Positions 7,414 to 47,878 of a stretch of DNA of 64,000 bases are shown one piece after another; position 1 is the first letter of the stretch; the number at the start of each line of letters is the position of its first letter. This DNA comes from Eledone cirrhosa (lineage: Eukaryota). The DNA is taken from NCBI GenBank assembly GCA_964016885.1, contig OZ024745.1, forward strand, positions 18,414,001 to 18,478,000. Reading direction: 5' to 3'. The position numbers and the translations under genes are program-made. Under the pieces are notes generated by a model that saw only the letters and a program-made list of their open reading frames with translations, did not search any database and had not been told where the DNA came from.

Positions 7414-8350
7414 AGGCGTAGGTGTTTCGGTGCTAAGATGCTGTGTCTTGGTGATCTGACTGTGGTTAGTTGAGATCACCAAGACACACCACCTTAGCAC
7501 CAATATACCTACACCTGACAACAACTATATCGGCCTTAACGACTCCCTAGCAGCACCCAATAATGCTGGCAACAGCCACTACAGACGCAACCAACATAAA
7601 CGCGACATGACTGGGGAATATGCTGGTGACCACACGGGTCAGCGGATGGCAACGGAAGACGCCGCTGCGTGTGGAATGATAATGGTACTACCCCGCACGC
7701 AGTGGCTTATAATGGTGCTAATGATAGGTGTAGGAGCGTAGTTAACAACGTAGATAGCAATAATAATAGCCTTACCGTGGGAACTAGAAGGACCGCGACC
7801 GAAATTGCAACTGCCGTGACAGGGGACGCTGCCCCCTTAGGGGTAACTGCCTGACTGATAGCGTTATATATAGGTTCACCGTAACTAGCCATAATAGCGT
7901 TAAACATTATATAGGGGCTACCTCTGGCCCGTTCAATAATAGATTTCGAAAACATCTCCACTCTTTCGCAAACAAGAAACTAGGACATTCCACTTCACTC
8001 GCGAACTACATCACAGCATTAATAGACTCAAACATCAGCTTCGCCAAGCACTGGGAAATTGTCGGCAGATCTGCACCGTACAACTTCAAGACGAAGTGCG
8101 AGCTTTGCTTCATGGAGCTTTACCATATCATAACGGCACCCCATGAGCTCATCAACGGCAGAGCTGAAACGACGATAAGCTGTACACACCGCTTAAAAAT
8201 AGCCAACTCCAGATGGAATAAGAATGAGGAGTGGAAACCGTAAACTGGGTCACCTTGCACCAAACTTTAACACCCCGGCGGGCAGGCGCTGCAAAAAACA
8301 TCCGGAAACTAACCATGCATCCCAGACCCGGCATGAATCGACCCAGGCGA
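7414..8350 (+). mobile_element. 5'-truncated Penelope-like element: CxCx5C linker plus C-terminal GIY-YIG endonuclease
   Basis: From 7806 reads CNCRDRGRCPL, then after one frameshift GNCLTDSVIYRFTVTSHNSVKHYIGATSGPFNNRFRKHLHSF...STSLANYI...HWEIVGRSAPYNFKTKCELCFMELYHI; 44-bp fold-back at the 5' end (7414-7457 / 7473-7516). Confidence 0.85.
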
Positions 8351-9199: not shown

Positions 9200-10450
9200 T
9201 TCTGAATGTTGAATTCTGGCGATGTCTACAAGAATTAAATATATTCGTTCTTAGAATAATAGAGTTTTTACATTTTAGTATGTAAAAAATGTCCTCATTA
9301 GACAATTTGCAGAAACTAGATAAAGCTGTGTTTCAGTACGCGGGCGCTTTTGAAACTGTTTCCCAAGCTAATGAATAGTCTATATTCTTGCATTTTACGT
9401 TCCATATCAGGTTTGAAAGAGACGTTGAAGATTTTTTATCAAATCTTTGGAAAGAGCAGCGAATTTTAAATTCTGTAGAAGTGACACCGACATAGTTAAA
9501 TATATTATCCCTAGTCTTAACTATGCATTTACGTTTTTATCTAAACACTTATTTTGTAAAGGACAGTTTGATTTAATTCTACAGTTACATTTTGCGGAGT
9601 TGTTGTTTTTCGGAACGGTACTATTATGTTGGATATTGCTAGAGATATTACTGCTATTTTGGTTATTTTTGGTTAGGGTTTAAATTTCTATTATTAATTC
9701 TATTTATATGTTGTGCTATGTTCATAGTAGTAGAGTAGGATAGTTTTATAGTATGTCTGTTAAAGATTGAGTGGTATATGTGGGCTTTAAGAAGACATTT
9801 ATCTAGTACTTTAAAGAATAGCTTTGCTAAAGGTATGTTAACGCTTAATGAGAATGGGGTTGAGTACCAAATAATATTTCTAGTCGTAGTTCTGTTAGTT
9901 TTAGAGTTTAAGTTATTTTTTTTTATTATAATTACAATTAATAGTAGGGCCTTATTACTGTTGTCGATGTATTTAATCTTATTTGTATACACTGCTCTAT
10001 TTAAAGCTTCATTATAATATTCAGTCTTATCGTCAAAAATGTTTTATTAGGGGAGATGCGTGAAATCCGTTGTTGGACAGAATTGACAATAGTGTTCTTG
10101 ATAGATCTAGGATGATTAGAGTTAAAACTTACATAATTTAGATTCTCATTAATTGTATGGAATGGATAGTAGAGCCCTGTGTTAAGGTTTAATGTTACGT
10201 CTAAAAAGTTAACAATTTTAAAGTTATTCTCTATTTCTGACTTAAGGTTGTAGCTATTGAAGAATTGTATTATGGATTTTCTTTTCCTATTAATTTCACA
10301 ATTACTATGATTTTCAATTAAAAGCAGCATATCATCACGAATATAAACCACCCGTCATCTCTGGTATTTTTCTATGCAGTGTATTATTAATAAATAGCCC
10401 TTCAAGATCCGTTATCTGCGCCGAGTCAGATGATCCAATGGTGATATCAA
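9200..10450 (-). mobile_element. Decayed Penelope-like element: RT C-half, CxCx5C linker, GIY-YIG
   Basis: ORFs 10001-10351 (YIRDD, VNFLDVTLNL, NSNHP) and 9663-9992 (RNIIWYSTPFS, IFNRHTIKLSYS); downstream KCNCRIKSNCPL, YVGVTSTEFKIR, TSLSNLIW; multiple frameshifts. Confidence 0.9.
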
Positions 10451-38264: not shown

Positions 38265-38722
38265 GTGGCGACCTATGTAGGGAATCGTATTATCGTGAGC
38301 TCCGCAAAGGTTTGTTGTTTTCAGTTGTTTAAAATTGCCATTTATGGAAAATTGTTATTGTTAACTGTATATAAGTACACATACATTGTTTTCTGAAAAG
38401 GACACTAAAAAATATTGGGGCCTTGAGCCCAAAATTTACACTTTTATAATTATCAAACAAAAATTTCTTTGAAAAAAATCATGGACGACTCACAGTCACA
38501 CCTTCCTCACAAACTAACACCTCACACCGACACCACCATTGTAAATATTACTATGTTTGCCAACACTAAAAATATAAGCAGTAGCAATAATTTAAATATG
38601 TCTCATGCAGACATTCATTTCCCGCCATTACCAATGACTGCAGGTGTTGAAGCCGCCACCCTCACCACCACCACAGCGACAACAGAAACAAAAGAAAAAA
38701 AAAATTATCTCGTGACATCGAA

Positions 38723-40386
38723 ATGGATTCACCCAAAATGGACTCTTCCACACCGAACACCACTGACGCCACAACCAGCACAACTGAAACTAAAAATAAC
38801 AATAACAAAAATAACGATAACAACAACAGCAACAACAGCAACAACAACAATGAGAATAAGAAAACCACCCTGTCTTTTGCCAGAGTAGCAAAAAAGTGCG
38901 AAGCAATACAGGAGGAATTAGATGAAGCCAAGAGAATGGTAAAGAAAGATGGGTACAGGGTCAACCTCACCCCCCCCCCCGCATACACACACACACACCT
39001 AATAAAATGGAGCATCGGCGCCTATACACCGTGTCTTATCGGACGATTAACATAAAATCTCGCCGAGTGGAACGGGCATCCGAGTCCCAAATCCCAAAAG
39101 CTTTGGGACATGTGTGGCCAAAGAAAACCCACATCAGACGTGGGCAGAAATGTGGAACCGTGGACGTGTACTTTGGAACACCACAGGAGGCCAGAGAACG
39201 CTCCATGGTCCCATTAAGAAGTGATAACTTCACACTCGTCCCAAGCTATTGTGGCCAGAGACTCGTGAAGATCAGGGTGACCCACGTTCCACCGGCCATC
39301 AAAATTCCCTGGCTAATGGCTCCCGTCCTCGCTGGCATCGAGGCCAACACCAAGATAATCGAAATAGCGAAAGAAAAGCAGGAGAACTGGTCCGGATCTG
39401 GGATGGAGTTCCTGATCCAAGCGGAACAAAAAAGTATTGAGGAGATCCCAGAGGTAATAGACCTCACTGAAGGCAGCCACCTCACCGTAATCATCGAATG
39501 CAGAAGGCCTAGGTGTGTCGTTTGTGATGAAGGAACCCACCTAAGGGCTTTCTGCCCTCAGGCTAAAAGGTTGAGGCCACCTCTCTTACCCACCCCAGTG
39601 ACTCAACCATCAACACCACCAGCAGCAGAAATGGCAGCAACAACTGTAGCAGCAACAACCCCAGCAAGAGTAGCAAAACCAACGCCACCACACCCAACGC
39701 ACCAGAACTAGCACCAGCGCCTACACCATCCACCATGCCACAACCAAAACTAACGCCTGTGGGGGATTTTCCAATCCCCGACCTATCGCAACTGGAGATA
39801 GATTGGGACGACGAGGAGTGGGAAACGGTATCAGGAAAAAAAGAAAAAAAGAAAAAGAAACCAAAAAGAAAAAAATTCTCTTCCTTCCCCCTCCAAAAAC
39901 AAAATACAGAGGGAAACAAATAAACTATCAAACAAAAAGCTTAGAACAGCTATGCCACCATCCACACCAGTATCACCAACCCCATCACCACAAACACCAA
40001 CACCATCACCAACACCACAAAAGTCACCAAAAAGCGGAACAGAAATCAACCCACAACAAACGCAAACAAAACAAAACAACCAAAACGATACACACTACAC
40101 AGCATTAAATTTGAACAACAACCAATTATTACGGTACATCCAACACAACACCAGCATCACACAACAAGACTACACAACAACCCAAAAGTTCACACCACCT
40201 CCACACAGACAAATCACTCGCATCACACAGAAAACGTACATGACATTAAAACAAAAATTCCCCAAAGACAACGTAGACTTCCGACAAGCACTCTCCAGGA
40301 GGATTTATAAGGACATCCTTCCGGAGGAGGCCACAAGCAGTGAAAAGGATGGAGAAACTATCCTTCCTCTACGAGAAGTAAGGTAA
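38723..40386 (+). pseudogene. LINE ORF1 (gag-like, CCHC zinc knuckle), frameshifted
   Basis: LSFARVA motif, CVVCDEGTHLRAFC knuckle, EWETVSGKK-basic motif; split over ORFs 38723, 39007, 39735 and 39952 in different frames. Confidence 0.8.
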
Positions 40387-40420
40387 GTGGTCTTTCCCAT
40401 CTTTTCCACTCCATTTCAAC

Positions 40421-43400
40421 ATGACCTCACTCAGAATAGGCAGCATAATTGCGCACTGGCTTGGGGTCGTCATGGAAGCAGGGCCACCTGCTCAAAGACC
40501 TCAGGTCACTAAACATAGGTGTAGTGGCCATCAGCGAGACCAGAATCTCCGAAGCACAGGCTTTCGCACCGATCTTTGGCGGCTACGATGTGTACGCATC
40601 TCCCAGCCGTCCGGAATCGGGGGGAGGAGTTGCTGTGCTTTTTCGGAGAGGTTTGGATCTTGCCATACGGGCCATCTTCCTGGACCCAGAGGGAAAGTTG
40701 GTGGTGCTGGACGTGACCAGCGGAGACGGGCAAGCTTTCAGGCTAGTGGCCGTCTATCTCCCGACAGGAGCAGGGCGGCCTGATTTCTTCCGGCGTCTGG
40801 AGACCTTTCTTCGAATGTCCCGCTCTTTAGTGTTAGTGGGCGACAGGAACGGGATCTTAGATGCCCGCTGGGACTGTGTAGGATTAGCGGATAGGGGTGG
40901 AGAGTGCAAGAGCCTCACCAACCTGCTCAGCCGTTTTGAACTGTCTGACAGGTACCGATTGGATTTCCCTAATGTGCCAATGTGGACTTGGACAAATCGC
41001 ATAGGGTCATCCAGATCATATCTAGATAGAGTATTTTGTAGGGAAATAGATAGGTCTAGCATAGGCTGTCCACAATTCAAGATAGTCAGCTACACGGACC
41101 ACAAATTCGTGATCTGTGTGCTTGACTTAGATAGGCTTCATAGACGAGGACCCGGCTACTGGAAGCTAAACGCGTCCTTACCAGCGCGCAAGGCCTACAG
41201 AGACCGGATTAGCGAACTAGTTAAGCGGGCGTTGACGGGGGCCATCGTCAACAACAAGTGGTGGTTTGCTCTGAAAAGAGCAATTAGAATAGAGTCCATT
41301 AGGTTTAGTAAGACTTTAGCAATAGAGAAAAATAGAGCAGAGGGAGAATTAGTTAGAAAATTAGATGAGGCGCTTAGCAAAGGCATCGCGACCGACATAC
41401 TTGCGGCGAAATTGGCCCTTGACCAATTCTTCAATGCAAAGCACGAAGGCTGCGTTGTCAGAGCTAGGGTGCGTGCTCTCAGACACGAGGGGACGAAAGC
41501 CGTTCAATGGGCCCGAGTGGCGGAGGCGCGTCGTGGCAACAAAGCCACGATCCGGTCTTTGGTGGACCACGACGGGCGCATGCTACTCGATCCCGGGCAA
41601 ATGTGTGAAGCTTTTCAGCGACACTTCGCTCAACTGTTCGGGGGCAGTGGCGGGCCGGATCGAGGGATGGACTTTAGTGTCTACCTCGACGGACTGCCGC
41701 GACTTTCGGCCACTGAGGCGGAGTGTTGCGAAAAGCCGATAACAACCGCTGAAGTACGGGATGCAATGACTAGTTGCACAAGGGGTAAATCGCCTGGTTT
41801 GGATGGTCTGCCCTATGAACTTTACGTACAAATGCCAAACTTGTTCGGAGGCCTCTTGGCGGACGTCTACTGCAACTGGCAACAGAACGGGAGAATTCCC
41901 AGCTCTGTGAGCCGAGGAGCGGTGGCGCTGCTGAGAAAGGATCCGAACAAGGGGGATAACATAGATAATTTTAGGCCCATAACTCTGCTAAACACAGAGT
42001 TCAAGATTTTGGCCAAGGTGCTAGCAAAGAGGTTGGCGCTTGTCGTTGGTGGTCTGGTGGGAGAGGCACAGACATGCGCCATTCCCGACAGATCCATCCA
42101 CGACAACCTCCACCTCATGCGATACATCGTAGAGAGGGTAGCTAGGGAACATGGCACGGGTGGGTCTTTGATCAATTTAGATCAGTCGAAAGCCTTCGAT
42201 AGGGTCGACCATCGTTACCTAACGGCAGTCCTGAGGGCGGCTGGCTTTGGGCCCGTCTTCAGAGGCTGGATCGCTGCCATGCACAGCGACATCTGCTCTG
42301 TAGTGAGAGTGAACGGTCACCTTTCGGAACCGTTCAACATCATGCGCTCGGTCCGCCAAGGATGTCCCCTCTCGTCCCTATTGTACGTATTGACTCTCGA
42401 GCCATTACTGCACAAACTGGAGACGTTGAGGGGGGTCCCGCGCGAACTAGGATGCGGAAGATCCGTGTCAGCATATGCCGACGATGTCACCGTAGTGGTG
42501 TCGAACGCCAAACACATCGAGGCGATCGGCACTACACTAAGAGAATACGAAGCGGTGACAGGAGCGATGATCAACCAGGAAAAGTCAGTGGGCCTGCAGC
42601 TCGGCACCTGGAGAGGCAGGTCCATGCCGTCCAACAGCGTCGTCGGGCGCTGGACGGACGGACCGGTTAAATTGCTAGGGGTCTGGTTCGGTCCAGACCT
42701 CCAGACGGACAAAAACTGGGACGAGGTGACGAGCAGGGTGGCTTCTCTCACCCAGAAATGGGCCGAGAGGAAGCTATCCCTGAAAGGTCGAGCGGAGGTG
42801 GCGAATGCGTACATCGCATCCGTCATCTACTACCGCCTGACCGTCGTAACTTGTCCTAAGCCCCGCCTGACTGCGCTGGAGCGTTTGCTCTTTCGCTTCT
42901 TGTGGAAGGGACGCGCTCCGATGGTCAGGCGGTCCATCTGCTGTCAACACCCGCTACGTGGAGGGCTGGGCATGCCGTGGCTGATGATGCGCAGACACGC
43001 GCTCAGGCTACGACATCTCCACCTCTTCCTCGACGGTGATCAGGTGTGGTCGCCGTTTGCAAGACACGTTTTTCCCCAGCTTGTTTCCTTGACGGAGCTG
43101 CAGTCCTGGGTCAAGCGAAGACCGAGAGGGAGCGCTTGGAGACTGGAATGTCTTCAGGCGCTCACAGCCCTCGACCAATCGGGCAATGTGATCGGTGGAA
43201 ACTCCACCTTGGCGTTCTATAGGGGATTAGTGGAGGGGAAGAGCGACGACGTACCCTGGAGAAACTCTAGGCGTCGACGAAAATCAACTAGCCGATCTCT
43301 TCGGAAGGACTTTCGGGCCGGGGCCTATGGACAACTTCCAGAAATCCCTGGCCTGGCAGTGCTACCGAGGAGCTTTGCCAGTTCGGGATAAACTCTACAG

Positions 43401-43842
43401 GCATGGAGGTGCCGTCAGCCGGGCATGTCCGAGATGCGCGCAGGGCGACGAAACCGTCCTGCACGCACTCGTCCAGTGTCCGAGCATTGCTGACTTGTGG
43501 GTTTATGTCGAACACCTGCTGTCACGTGTAGGACGGATCCAGCTATCAGCTGAGTCCATCGTGAGGATTGCCCCACCCCCTTCCTTTAGCCTGGAAGGGC
43601 AGGCAGTTTTTATCTGTCTGGTGGCCATGGCGAAAGAGATAGTATGGTGGACACGTTTGAAAGGGCTGAAGACGAGCACTTACCTCTTCGGTGTTGCCCT
43701 GATTAACTTTTTCAAATTTCATTTGAAAAGGAAAATCAGGGTAGAGAGGGAAGTGCTCTCTTCCCAGCATTTTGTTGAAAGATGGGTGAGAGAAGCAAGT
43801 ATGGCCCGAATGAATGGGCCTTCTCTGAGTATGTGTCTGTAA
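40421..43842 (+). pseudogene. LINE ORF2: APE endonuclease, reverse transcriptase, C-terminal zinc finger; two frameshifts
   Basis: AISET, VGDRN, SYLDR, TDH (APE); GYWKLN; KSPGLDG, FRPITLLN, LDQSKAFDRV, VRQGCPLS, YADD (RT); CPRC...HALVQC; frameshifts near 40456 and 43255. Confidence 0.93.
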
Positions 43843-45940: not shown

Positions 45941-46284
45941 AATGAATCAATTAACTGGAGAAACTGTTAAACTAAATTGATATTAGTATGCATGTGCATG
46001 AATACGAGAGTGAGAAACAGGCTAGTGTTAGCTAGTGGTAGCTAGTGGTAGCTAGTGGTTCAACGGATATATTGGCTTACATAGAATTGGTATATATTTA
46101 TGCCTATATTTGTGTGTTAAGTGATACATAGGGACTATTAATAAAAATTAGAATTGGAGCTCTGAAATAGCAATATATATATGGATGTATATATAATGTA
46201 TTTTGCAATACACTTTATGCTTAATTAGAAGCATTTTGAAGACCGTAAGCTATTGTTTTAAAGTAGTGACAAATTCACTCACTT

Positions 46285-46379
46285 TGATCTCAGCAAACAG
46301 GGGAGATAAGCCAACAAGACTTGTTTCGCTTTGGTTGAAGCTTATCAAGGCCAACTACCCCACCTGTTTACTGAGATCA
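46285..46379 (-). ncRNA. Type I hammerhead ribozyme, U3-A8 variant (inverted copy)
   Basis: Reverse complement of 46656-46750. Confidence 0.75.
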
Positions 46380-46655
46380 TTGATGTTATATTGTTATAGA
46401 AATCTAGTAAATAATCAGGAGCTGATTATGCAGAGCGGTTGTTGGTCAGGCAGAAATTAAAAATTAGAATTGGAGCTCTTCAAAATGCTTTTAATTAAGC
46501 ATAAAGTGTATTGCAAAATACATTATATATACATCCATATATATATTGCTATTTCAGAGCTCCAATTCTAATTTTTAATTTCTGCCTGACCAACAACCGC
46601 TCTGCATAATCAGCTCCTGATTATTTACTAGATTTCTATAACAATATAACATCAA

Positions 46656-46750
46656 TGATCTCAGTAAACAGGTGGGGTAGTTGGCCTTGATAAGCTTCAA
46701 CCAAAGCGAAACAAGTCTTGTTGGCTTATCTCCCCTGTTTGCTGAGATCA
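46656..46750 (+). ncRNA. Type I hammerhead ribozyme, U3-A8 variant
   Basis: gcc-TTGATAA-gctt-caacca-aagc-GAAA-caagtcttg-TT-ggc; stem I extends through ggggta/tatctc to 17-bp tgatctcagtaaacagg/cctgtttgctgagatca; predicted cleavage after 46722 (GUU). Confidence 0.78.
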
Positions 46751-47878
46751 AAGTGAGTGAATTTGTCACTACTTTAAAACAATAGCTTACGGTCTTCAAA
46801 ATGCTTTTAATTAAGCATAAAGTGTATTGCAAAATACATTATATATACGGACTATTAATAGTTTTTATTGACTACCTATTATCATTTGTGATGAGAAATA
46901 GAATATAACTTTTCCCACCCTTTTCTATCCTGTCCGATACAGCTAAATGCAGTGTTAATTATGGCAGAGAGGACTAGTGACTGAACCCAGATCGAAACAG
47001 TTTTTTTTTCTTCAGTCAAATGCAAATTGATGAAGCGGGTTGGACGTTCATTAATATGTGAAACTCAGGCTCCGCGGTGTTTATATTTTGGAGACTGGTT
47101 ATGTGGCGACGAGTTAAATATCGATATAGAATATGTATTTACAACGAAATGATGATTATGATACAACAGTATTTCAATCAATCCCGGCCCGTCATAAGTA
47201 GTGTTGAATGCCACAAGTATAATTCTCACAAGATATATCTCTACTGTGACGAAGATATCTTTTGAAATCTTAGTATGCATTAAACGTGGTTTATACATTT
47301 ACACACGTATTGCCTTACTGAAACTTGCATGCAAGTCTTAACACCTGATCTATCTTCTTGTTGGTGTTTCTGCTAATTTAATGTAAAGTAAGAACTTCGA
47401 GAATATCTGTAAATGTTAGTTGTCACCTGAGAAAAGGTGTGTTAACCATGAATGTTTCTGATGAAGATAAAAGCTCTAGGACATCTGTGCTTGATTGAAA
47501 GCAACTGTAAGTGATATGTACAGCTCGGAAAAAGTGAAGAAAATCCAAGTCAATGTTAATTTATCAAATGTGTGATCTCGGGGAGGTTGTAACGTGCTTC
47601 TTTTGACTTGAAACATGAAATTCTTTTCTACATCTAAATTATTAAAGAGAAACGATGTATATATATAAGAAAAGCTACAATACTAATTAAATTCAAAACA
47701 CATATATTATATTACTAAATGAAATAATATATTCGACAGATAAATAAGCTGTGTGGTTTGTTAGTTTGTTACAAATAACATAGCTGTCAATTAGATGTTT
47801 TAATATTCGTCAATCAAATTTTTGGCTTCACATTGTTCCCATAAATGTATTCATTCTCCAATAAAATAAATAACCAAG

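What the first reader, a model, noticed from the sequence alone, without database searches (positions are those of the whole stretch)
46132..46860. Young genomic copy of a 316-nt circular or multimeric ribozyme RNA (retrozyme-like), integrated with a 5' inversion
Seen: between a 12-bp TSD (ggactattaata) lie two opposite-orientation segments, about 336 nt and about 370 nt. Each runs through a complete 316-nt unit and continues into its own start, and the two begin at different permutation points. They differ at only one position I could find and join at a 3-nt microhomology (tct). The unit has no credible protein but carries a hammerhead. Known: non-LTR retrozymes are non-coding tandem repeats of a few hundred nt with type I hammerheads that yield circular RNAs and are thought to be mobilised by Penelope-like RTs; 5' inversions with microhomology typify twin priming or PLE insertions. 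Inference: this records rolling-circle or multimer reverse transcription of a self-cleaving circRNA, possibly a family not yet described in this lineage.
Basis: partly seen in the sequence, partly recalled or inferred. Interest (0 to 1): 0.9.

Follow-up and report, generated by a model that had tools for sequence, protein, structure and literature searches.

The report
Penelope-driven hammerhead retrozyme, rolling-circle footprint
This is one copy of a repeated, non-coding 316-base element carrying a predicted self-cleaving ribozyme (a retrozyme, a known kind of mobile RNA), and the shape of its many copies suggests that a Penelope-type reverse transcriptase likely copied a small RNA circle round and round from both ends of the cut chromosome.

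Summary
Observation confirmed: 12-bp TSD, two inverted arms (336 and 372 nt) of a 316-nt unit, one mismatch, 3-nt junction homology, type I hammerhead. It belongs to a dispersed family (557 ribozyme matches) within a superfamily of about 19,000 units, and is a non-LTR retrozyme, a known kind. Copy anatomy points to Penelope-like (PLE) machinery: all 55 inverted insertions among 75 examined have sense 3' ends outward, most ends abut (TA)n, and 48 of 49 classifiable ones carry one long and one short 3' end. Three coding PLE families here follow the same rule (18 of 18). In a young sister family, 71 of 73 units match their own insertion's commonest unit across both arms, while insertions differ (8 haplotypes in 11). 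That is the pattern expected from rolling-circle copying of one monomer. Not shown: the RNA, its cleavage or circularity, and the partner PLE (no homologous pLTR found). Corrections: only the 5' junction is permuted, and the clean TSD and GUU triplet are atypical. The scan held no look-alike sequence, only a rotifer hammerhead pair. Verdict: new member of a known kind, with useful mechanistic evidence.

The parts
46132..46143 (+). Left target-site duplication, 12 bp
   Evidence: only clean non-microsatellite TSD among 75 insertions
46144..46479 (-). Arm A, 336 nt: unit positions 150-316 then 1-169 (to 171 with the 2-nt TSD overlap), numbered from the predicted cut; ends at the LONG 3' site
46144..46186 (-). 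3' tail extension present only on arm A (unit 127-169), equivalent of the PLE tail
   Evidence: PMC3846280 passages
46309..46352 (-). Type I hammerhead of arm A, predicted cut 46313/46312
46477..46479 (.). Head-to-head junction, 3-nt microhomology joining the two truncated 5' ends (unit 150 and 71)
46477..46848 (+). Arm B, 372 nt: unit positions 71-316 then 1-126; ends at the SHORT 3' site
46507..46522 (+). Small hairpin upstream of the 3' end sites (repeated at 46823-46838), kept with different sequence in sister families B and C; candidate RT recognition element (inferred)
   Evidence: folds and alignment
46642..46642 (+). Variant 236C found only in this insertion, present in both arms (also 46393)
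46656..46750 (+). Long helix extending hammerhead helix I (46656-46679 with 46727-46750)
   Evidence: z -6.9; recurrent family variants keep pairing
46683..46726 (+). Type I hammerhead of arm B: helix I 46683-86/46723-26; core UUGAUAA 46687-93 (U3-A8); helix II 46694-707; GAAA 46708-11; near-palindromic helix III 46711-21; GUU, predicted cut 46722/46723
46849..46860 (+). Right target-site duplication, 12 bp
   Evidence: junction present in a run contig

Best explanation
This is an inverted two-armed genomic copy of a non-coding 316-nt hammerhead repeat (a non-LTR retrozyme) that was likely written into the chromosome by a Penelope-like reverse transcriptase-endonuclease acting in trans, probably from a circular monomer RNA. 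Proposed steps: (1) a tandem copy is transcribed, and hammerheads, probably paired through palindromic helix III, cut out a monomer (inferred); (2) the monomer is ligated into a circle (inferred from other animals); (3) the PLE endonuclease nicks AT-rich DNA on both strands, here 12 nt apart, leaving two 3' ends (geometry read from the TSD); (4) each end primes reverse transcription, one at the long site (about 166-174) and one at the short site (about 125-141) of the same RNA or the same haplotype (end pattern shown, enzymology inferred); (5) both RTs run through the cleavage site, often several times (shown); (6) the two cDNA ends are joined by microhomology or a few extra bases (junction pattern shown).
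For: All 55 inverted insertions of 75 are tails-out; 48 of 49 classifiable ones have one long and one short end (strict classes 40 of 41, p 2e-11); 97 of 130 3' ends abut (TA)4. Same rule in sister family B (6 of 7 tails-out pairs), family C (11 of 11, read) and three coding PLE families (3 of 3 and 8 of 8; 7 of 7, read). 80 of 130 arms exceed one unit; 209 of 210 cleavage-site crossings carry no deletion. Family C: 71 of 73 full units identical to their insertion's commonest unit, 0.08 differences per pair within (0.07 across arms) against 2.58 between; 8 haplotypes in 11 insertions. This copy has a private variant in both arms. Recurrent variants occur in both arms in 39 of 51 cases. Junction homology of 2 nt or more in 26 of 41 against 19% by chance. 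Ribozyme covariation: pair 3-8 is U-A in 168 of 172 family A and C-G in 39 of 45 related motifs; helix I and the helix III palindrome change compensatorily; circular fold z -6.0. PLE protein primes both strands from two internal sites and is modelled as a dimer (PMC11167929).
Against: No RNA, cleavage or circle was observed. No coding PLE with a homologous pLTR was found, and tail lengths differ (about 30 nt here; roughly 65-75, 77 and 164 nt in the three coding families). In family A, units within an insertion differ (3.4 per pair against 7.2 between); there are 180 singletons, and 21 of 27 private shared variants cover only part of the units, which needs later mutation and conversion. 12 of 51 recurrent variants are on one arm only. 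23 of 130 5' ends lie in the first 30 nt after the cut (p 0.003), which could mean some linear self-cleaved templates. The active fold is 3.7 kcal/mol above the minimum. Eight of nine Xenopus retrozyme dimers did not cleave in vitro (10.64898/2026.07.22.740005).
Confidence: 0.72

Rival explanations
1. Same element and PLE enzyme, but the template is a linear multimeric transcript from tandem arrays; circles, if any, are by-products.
For: Arrays of 26 and about 9 units exist in family A. Ribozyme cleavage was not needed for insertion by a PLE in vitro (PMC11167929). Some 5' ends cluster just after the cut site.
Against: A new mutation in a linear array stays in one unit, yet family C shows 7 haplotypes among 9 insertions of 3 or more units, each fixed across up to 14 units and both arms. 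The 26-unit array's own variants do not recur as a set in other copies (read by eye).
Confidence: 0.15
2. The second arm is a fold-back or self-primed copy of the first cDNA or of an antisense template, as proposed for rotifer PLEs.
For: Would explain identical haplotypes in both arms. Palindromes at inverted junctions were reported (PMC3846280); three junctions here have 7-nt homology.
Against: A fold-back copy of the long-end arm must be the shorter arm, but the long-end arm is longer in only 21 of 48. A short-end arm cannot template a long end. Junction positions are scattered.
Confidence: 0.05
3. Linear self-cleaved monomer copied with repeated end-to-end template jumps.
For: Gives a monomer bottleneck without a circle.
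Against: 209 of 210 crossings show no deletion (insertions at the joint were not scored separately). Jumps between molecules would mix haplotypes, which family C does not show.
Confidence: 0.05
4. The unit is simply the pLTR of a coding PLE, a DNA-level satellite, or an assembly artefact.
For: 5'-truncated PLEs give similar inverted HHR pairs in this genome; the 26-unit array has a 6-unit higher-order repeat, so DNA amplification does occur; one array abuts a PLE frame.
Against: Arms continue unit into unit, not into an ORF, in the 110 loci tested. The array ends at the long site in front of a decayed PLE whose intact relatives have an unrelated pLTR. Family A arrays in the same assembly keep internal differences.
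Confidence: 0.03

Closest known systems
Metazoan non-LTR retrozymes (Cervera and de la Pena 2020, PMC7229834; coral, mussel, axolotl)
   Same: Non-coding tandem unit of 150-450 nt, low GC, type I hammerhead, no LTR/PBS/PPT seen, TSD longer than 4 bp, coexisting with PLEs.
   Different: Different sequence; U3-A8 core; expression and circularity not shown here; in the parts I read, that paper does not analyse insertion ends, inversions or haplotypes.
Non-LTR retrozymes as non-autonomous PLE derivatives (Li, Clavereau, Pollet, bioRxiv 10.64898/2026.07.22.740005)
   Same: Same proposed dependence on PLEs; similar unit sizes.
   Different: Their evidence is co-occurrence and pLTR homology, mainly in vertebrates. 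Here no homologous pLTR was found; the evidence is the insertion footprint.
EN+ Penelope-like elements (PMC3846280, PMC8557442, PMC11167929)
   Same: Head-to-head inverted 5'-truncated copy, TSD of about 9-12 bp, 30-40-nt tail on one arm, two internal RT start sites, AT-rich or (TA)n targets.
   Different: No ORF; arms are multimers of one unit; the tail rule is nearly strict here, where the papers call it optional or frequent.
PLE hammerheads with U3-A8 core or palindromic helix III (PMC4209133)
   Same: U3-A8 covariant, palindromic helix III suggesting dimeric folding.
   Different: Here within a tandem non-coding unit, with a 4-bp helix II and a long helix I extension.
L1 twin priming (recalled, not from a call)
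   Same: Both target strands prime; tails-out inversion with microhomology.
   Different: L1 arms are non-overlapping parts of one polyadenylated RNA; here arms cover the same unit, start at two fixed internal sites and have no poly(A).

Membership tests
Non-LTR retrozyme | Tandem unit of a few hundred nt, multi-copy | tested here: met
   316 nt; 557 ribozyme matches, 0 control; arrays to 26 units
Non-LTR retrozyme | Type I hammerhead in each unit | tested here: met
   Core and helices parsed and covarying; below Rfam gathering score
Non-LTR retrozyme | No protein coding | tested here: met
   34 codons sense, 87 antisense; no PLE ORF joined in 110 loci
Non-LTR retrozyme | TSD longer than 4 bp when present | tested here: met
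   12 bp here; most copies indeterminate in (TA)n
Non-LTR retrozyme | Self-cleavage of the transcript | not testable with these tools
   Needs in vitro transcription
Non-LTR retrozyme | Expressed as circular RNA | tested here: inconclusive
   Indirect only: insertion-wide haplotypes; no direct RNA data available
PLE-mobilised element | Head-to-head inverted 5'-truncated copy | tested here: met
   55 of 55
PLE-mobilised element | Two 3' ends about 30-40 nt apart, tail on one arm | tested here: met
   48 of 49; 40 of 41 strict
PLE-mobilised element | AT-rich or (TA)n targets | tested here: met
   97 of 130 ends; no genome background computed
PLE-mobilised element | Homology to the pLTR of a coding PLE | tested here: inconclusive
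   None in three coding families; tens of thousands of PLE candidates unscored
Autonomous PLE | RT plus GIY-YIG ORF between pLTRs | tested here: not met
Plant LTR retrozyme | Type III hammerhead in LTRs, 4-bp TSD | tested here: not met
   Type I topology, 12-bp TSD

The most novel reading that the evidence does not exclude
Each inverted insertion is made by one dimeric PLE complex whose two RTs, primed from the two overhangs of a staggered cut, start at two different fixed sites on the same circular RNA and roll around it. The strict long/short tail rule would then be a general PLE mechanism, and these arrays a direct genomic record of rolling-circle reverse transcription of a viroid-sized host circRNA evolving as a haplotype swarm.
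Probability: 0.5. Interest if true: 0.8.

Novelty: new member of a known kind. Interest (0 to 1): 0.6.

Why it matters
The papers I read propose, but do not show, that circular RNAs template retrozyme and PLE insertion, and they list the origin of PLE inverted/tail structures as unresolved. This genome gives countable footprints for both: a near-strict one-long/one-short rule shared by non-coding and coding elements, and insertion-wide haplotypes across up to 14 units. It also supplies reagents for a direct test: a 316-nt RNA with two mapped start sites, intact-looking PLE ORFs, and this copy's unique-sequence target, which fixes the cut geometry at 12 nt. The element class itself is not new.

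Tried and rejected
RNA evidence: no RNA holder listed (six rows of unrecorded type). Four runs laid are contigs, and their summed depth says nothing on expression or copy number. The small shares in organisms B-D were not interpreted. Rfam: only sub-threshold HH9 hits; miRNA hits are microsatellite noise. Folding the bare hammerhead gave no signal (z -0.4 and -0.6). Partner search: 32 loci of the 927-aa PLE family, 30 generic hammerhead loci, 7 more, 22 loci of the 719-aa family and a profile search gave only more non-coding relatives. Two apparent chimeras were rejected as adjacent separate insertions: the array next to a PLE frame and L114. No arm from a diverged family was seen at the 5' end of 19 single-orientation copies. 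In family A, cross-arm divergence at the same versus different unit index (1.23 vs 1.36%) was uninformative. The automatic alignment misregistered the core, so pairs were parsed by script. Pair counts were inflated by duplicated segments and are replaced. The first 927-aa family count used a wrong reference and is replaced. Pfam and PDB did not name the 719-aa PLE protein; the Atlas placed it near GIY-YIG, RVT_1 and HTH_animal clusters. Literature searches for octopus+hammerhead+ribozyme, retrozyme+cephalopod and rolling-circle terms listed no description of this family; the lineage is my untested guess.

Full report
Observation. A 12-bp duplication occurring nowhere else in the window encloses arm A (46144-46479, minus, 336 nt) and arm B (46477-46848, plus, 372 nt). 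Both are more-than-unit copies of a 316-nt, 34% GC, non-coding unit; they differ at 46228 only and share TCT at the junction. I number the unit from the predicted cut (1 = 46723). Arm A runs 150-316/1-169(171), arm B 71-316/1-126. The 5' ends meet in the middle and the sense 3' ends face the TSDs.

Ribozyme. Rfam gives only a sub-threshold HH9 hit (21.7 bits), so I tested it by comparison. The core is UUGAUAA...GAAA...GUH, with U3-A8 in place of C3-G8, a covariant reported in Schistosoma PLEs (PMC4209133). A 76%-identical sister family B turned up. Pair 3-8 is U-A in 168 of 172 family A motifs and C-G in 39 of 45 related motifs; helix I changes compensatorily; helix III is a different palindrome in each family, which duplexes (-10.1 and -13.6 kcal/mol) but forms no hairpin alone, suggesting a dimeric ribozyme. 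The four commonest variants in the long helix (24, 18, 7 and 5 insertions) keep pairing, while no pair-breaking variant reaches more than 4. A natural unit folded as a circle has z -6.0 (0 of 100 shuffles). This copy has GUU in both arms; 203 of 210 units have GUC. Activity is untested.

Family. The 3.0-Gb genome gave 230 matches in 40 scored of 726 candidates and 557 exact ribozyme matches against 0 control. A conserved motif counts 19,255 units for the superfamily, and a generic hammerhead pattern 33,758 against 109. I dissected 75 family A insertions: the 40 best BLAST sites and 35 more from the first 100 position-ordered hits on contig 1, dropping one segmental duplicate. The sample favours copies that contain the ribozyme.

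PLE footprint. All 55 inverted insertions are tails-out. 3' ends cluster at about 125-141 (short) and 163-177 (long). Of 49 inverted copies with both ends in these classes, 48 have one of each (six others have an atypical end); with strict classes 40 of 41, p 2e-11. 97 of 130 3' ends abut (TA)4, which blurs the short site towards 140. This copy, the only one with a clean TSD, puts it at 126 with no target homology. Junctions show 2 or more shared bases in 26 of 41 (19% expected); 14 of 55 have extra bases. The same long/short pairing holds in family B (6 of 7 tails-out pairs, the seventh truncated), family C (11 of 11) and three families joined to PLE-like RT and GIY-YIG frames: 3 of 3 and 8 of 8 and 7 of 7, one tails-in pair left out. 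Qualitatively this is known: a 31-bp tail on one of the inverted pLTRs with 9-10-bp TSDs (PMC3846280, passages), often at one end (PMC8557442, passages), and two internal RT starts with both strands extended in vitro by a protein modelled as a dimer (PMC11167929, parts 1-2 of 4). My searches listed no paper beyond these on the point, and I saw no count of the rule in what I read.

Template. 80 of 130 arms exceed one unit and 31 exceed two; 209 of 210 crossings of the cut site have no deletion. The test between circle and linear array is whether units within an insertion are identical. Family A is too decayed to decide (3.4 differences per unit pair within, 7.2 between), though recurrent variants sit in both arms in 39 of 51 cases and this copy carries a private variant in both arms. 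Sister family C (310-311 nt, about 73% alike over the tail region) is younger. In 14 loci, chosen partly for long arrays, 11 had full units: 71 of 73 equal their insertion's commonest unit, with 0.08 differences per pair within (0.07 across arms), 2.58 between, and 8 haplotypes. A mutation fixed across up to 14 units in two inverted arms needs a monomer step followed by amplification, most simply an RT rolling on a circle. This is inference from a relative, extended to family A by shared anatomy. Fold-back copying fails because the long-end arm is longer in only 21 of 48.

Against. No RNA was seen. The partner PLE was not found: three coding families have unrelated pLTRs and other tail lengths, and two apparent links were adjacent insertions. 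Family A has many partly shared variants (21 of 27). 5' ends are enriched just after the cut site (23 of 130, p 0.003), although only one lies within 3 nt of it. Most Xenopus dimers tested in the 2026 preprint did not cleave.

Comparison and novelty. It meets the sequence-level definition of non-LTR retrozymes (PMC7229834, parts 2-4 of 6), which are expressed as circles in coral, mussel and axolotl and proposed to use PLE RTs. The 2026 preprint (parts 1-3 of 5; supplements closed) argues for PLE origin from pLTR homology. Circular templates for PLEs were proposed in PMC4209133 (parts 1-2 of 4). Searches with octopus or cephalopod terms (the lineage is an untested guess from genome size and microsatellites) listed no description of this family. 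The scan's notes held one rotifer hammerhead pair and no look-alike sequence.

Verdict. New member of a known kind. Confidence about 0.9 that it is a PLE-mobilised retrozyme and 0.72 for the full model with a circular template. Interest 0.6, for the testable mechanistic footprints rather than for the element class.

Noticed in passing
window 38427-43842 (+): Near-complete LINE: 980-aa frame with endonuclease and RT (Pfam PF03372, PF00078), a shifted continuation to 43842 and broken ORF1-like frames upstream.
   Followed up: partly
window 7788-8243 (+) and 9663-10043 (-): Relics of Penelope-like elements; the first belongs to a very large family (56,888 candidates) with long open copies, e.g. 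L125 (927 aa).
   Followed up: partly
L125, L126, L132: The 927-aa PLE family also has a U3-A8 hammerhead with palindromic helix III (read), and 3' ends about 164 nt apart.
   Followed up: partly
L227-L240 (contig 1): Sister family C: very young, long homogeneous inverted arrays with a GUA triplet; probably the currently active retrozyme and the best experimental target.
   Followed up: yes
L222:7319-8744, L225:6607-7478, L208:3213-3663: Further tandem or inverted hammerhead repeats with periods of about 470-475 and 407 nt, not found homologous to this unit.
   Followed up: no
L049-L050 (G000:C1:293635222-293643479): 26-unit family A array with a 6-unit higher-order duplication, showing DNA-level amplification after insertion.
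   Followed up: partly
L198, L226, L132 tails versus window 46551-46604: By eye, short motifs (GAG[CT]AC and [GA]CTCTG, able to pair) recur between the two 3' sites of three coding PLEs and, in reversed order, in the retrozyme; untested and possibly chance.
   Followed up: no
L219:6792-7215: Intermediate relative (84-90% to family A) with a UUGAUAU core, again tails-out with ends at 140 and 166.
   Followed up: no
genome-wide: 33,758 matches to one generic hammerhead pattern against 109 control; most of the first 100 belong to one PLE family, often as tiny inverted pairs.
   Followed up: partly
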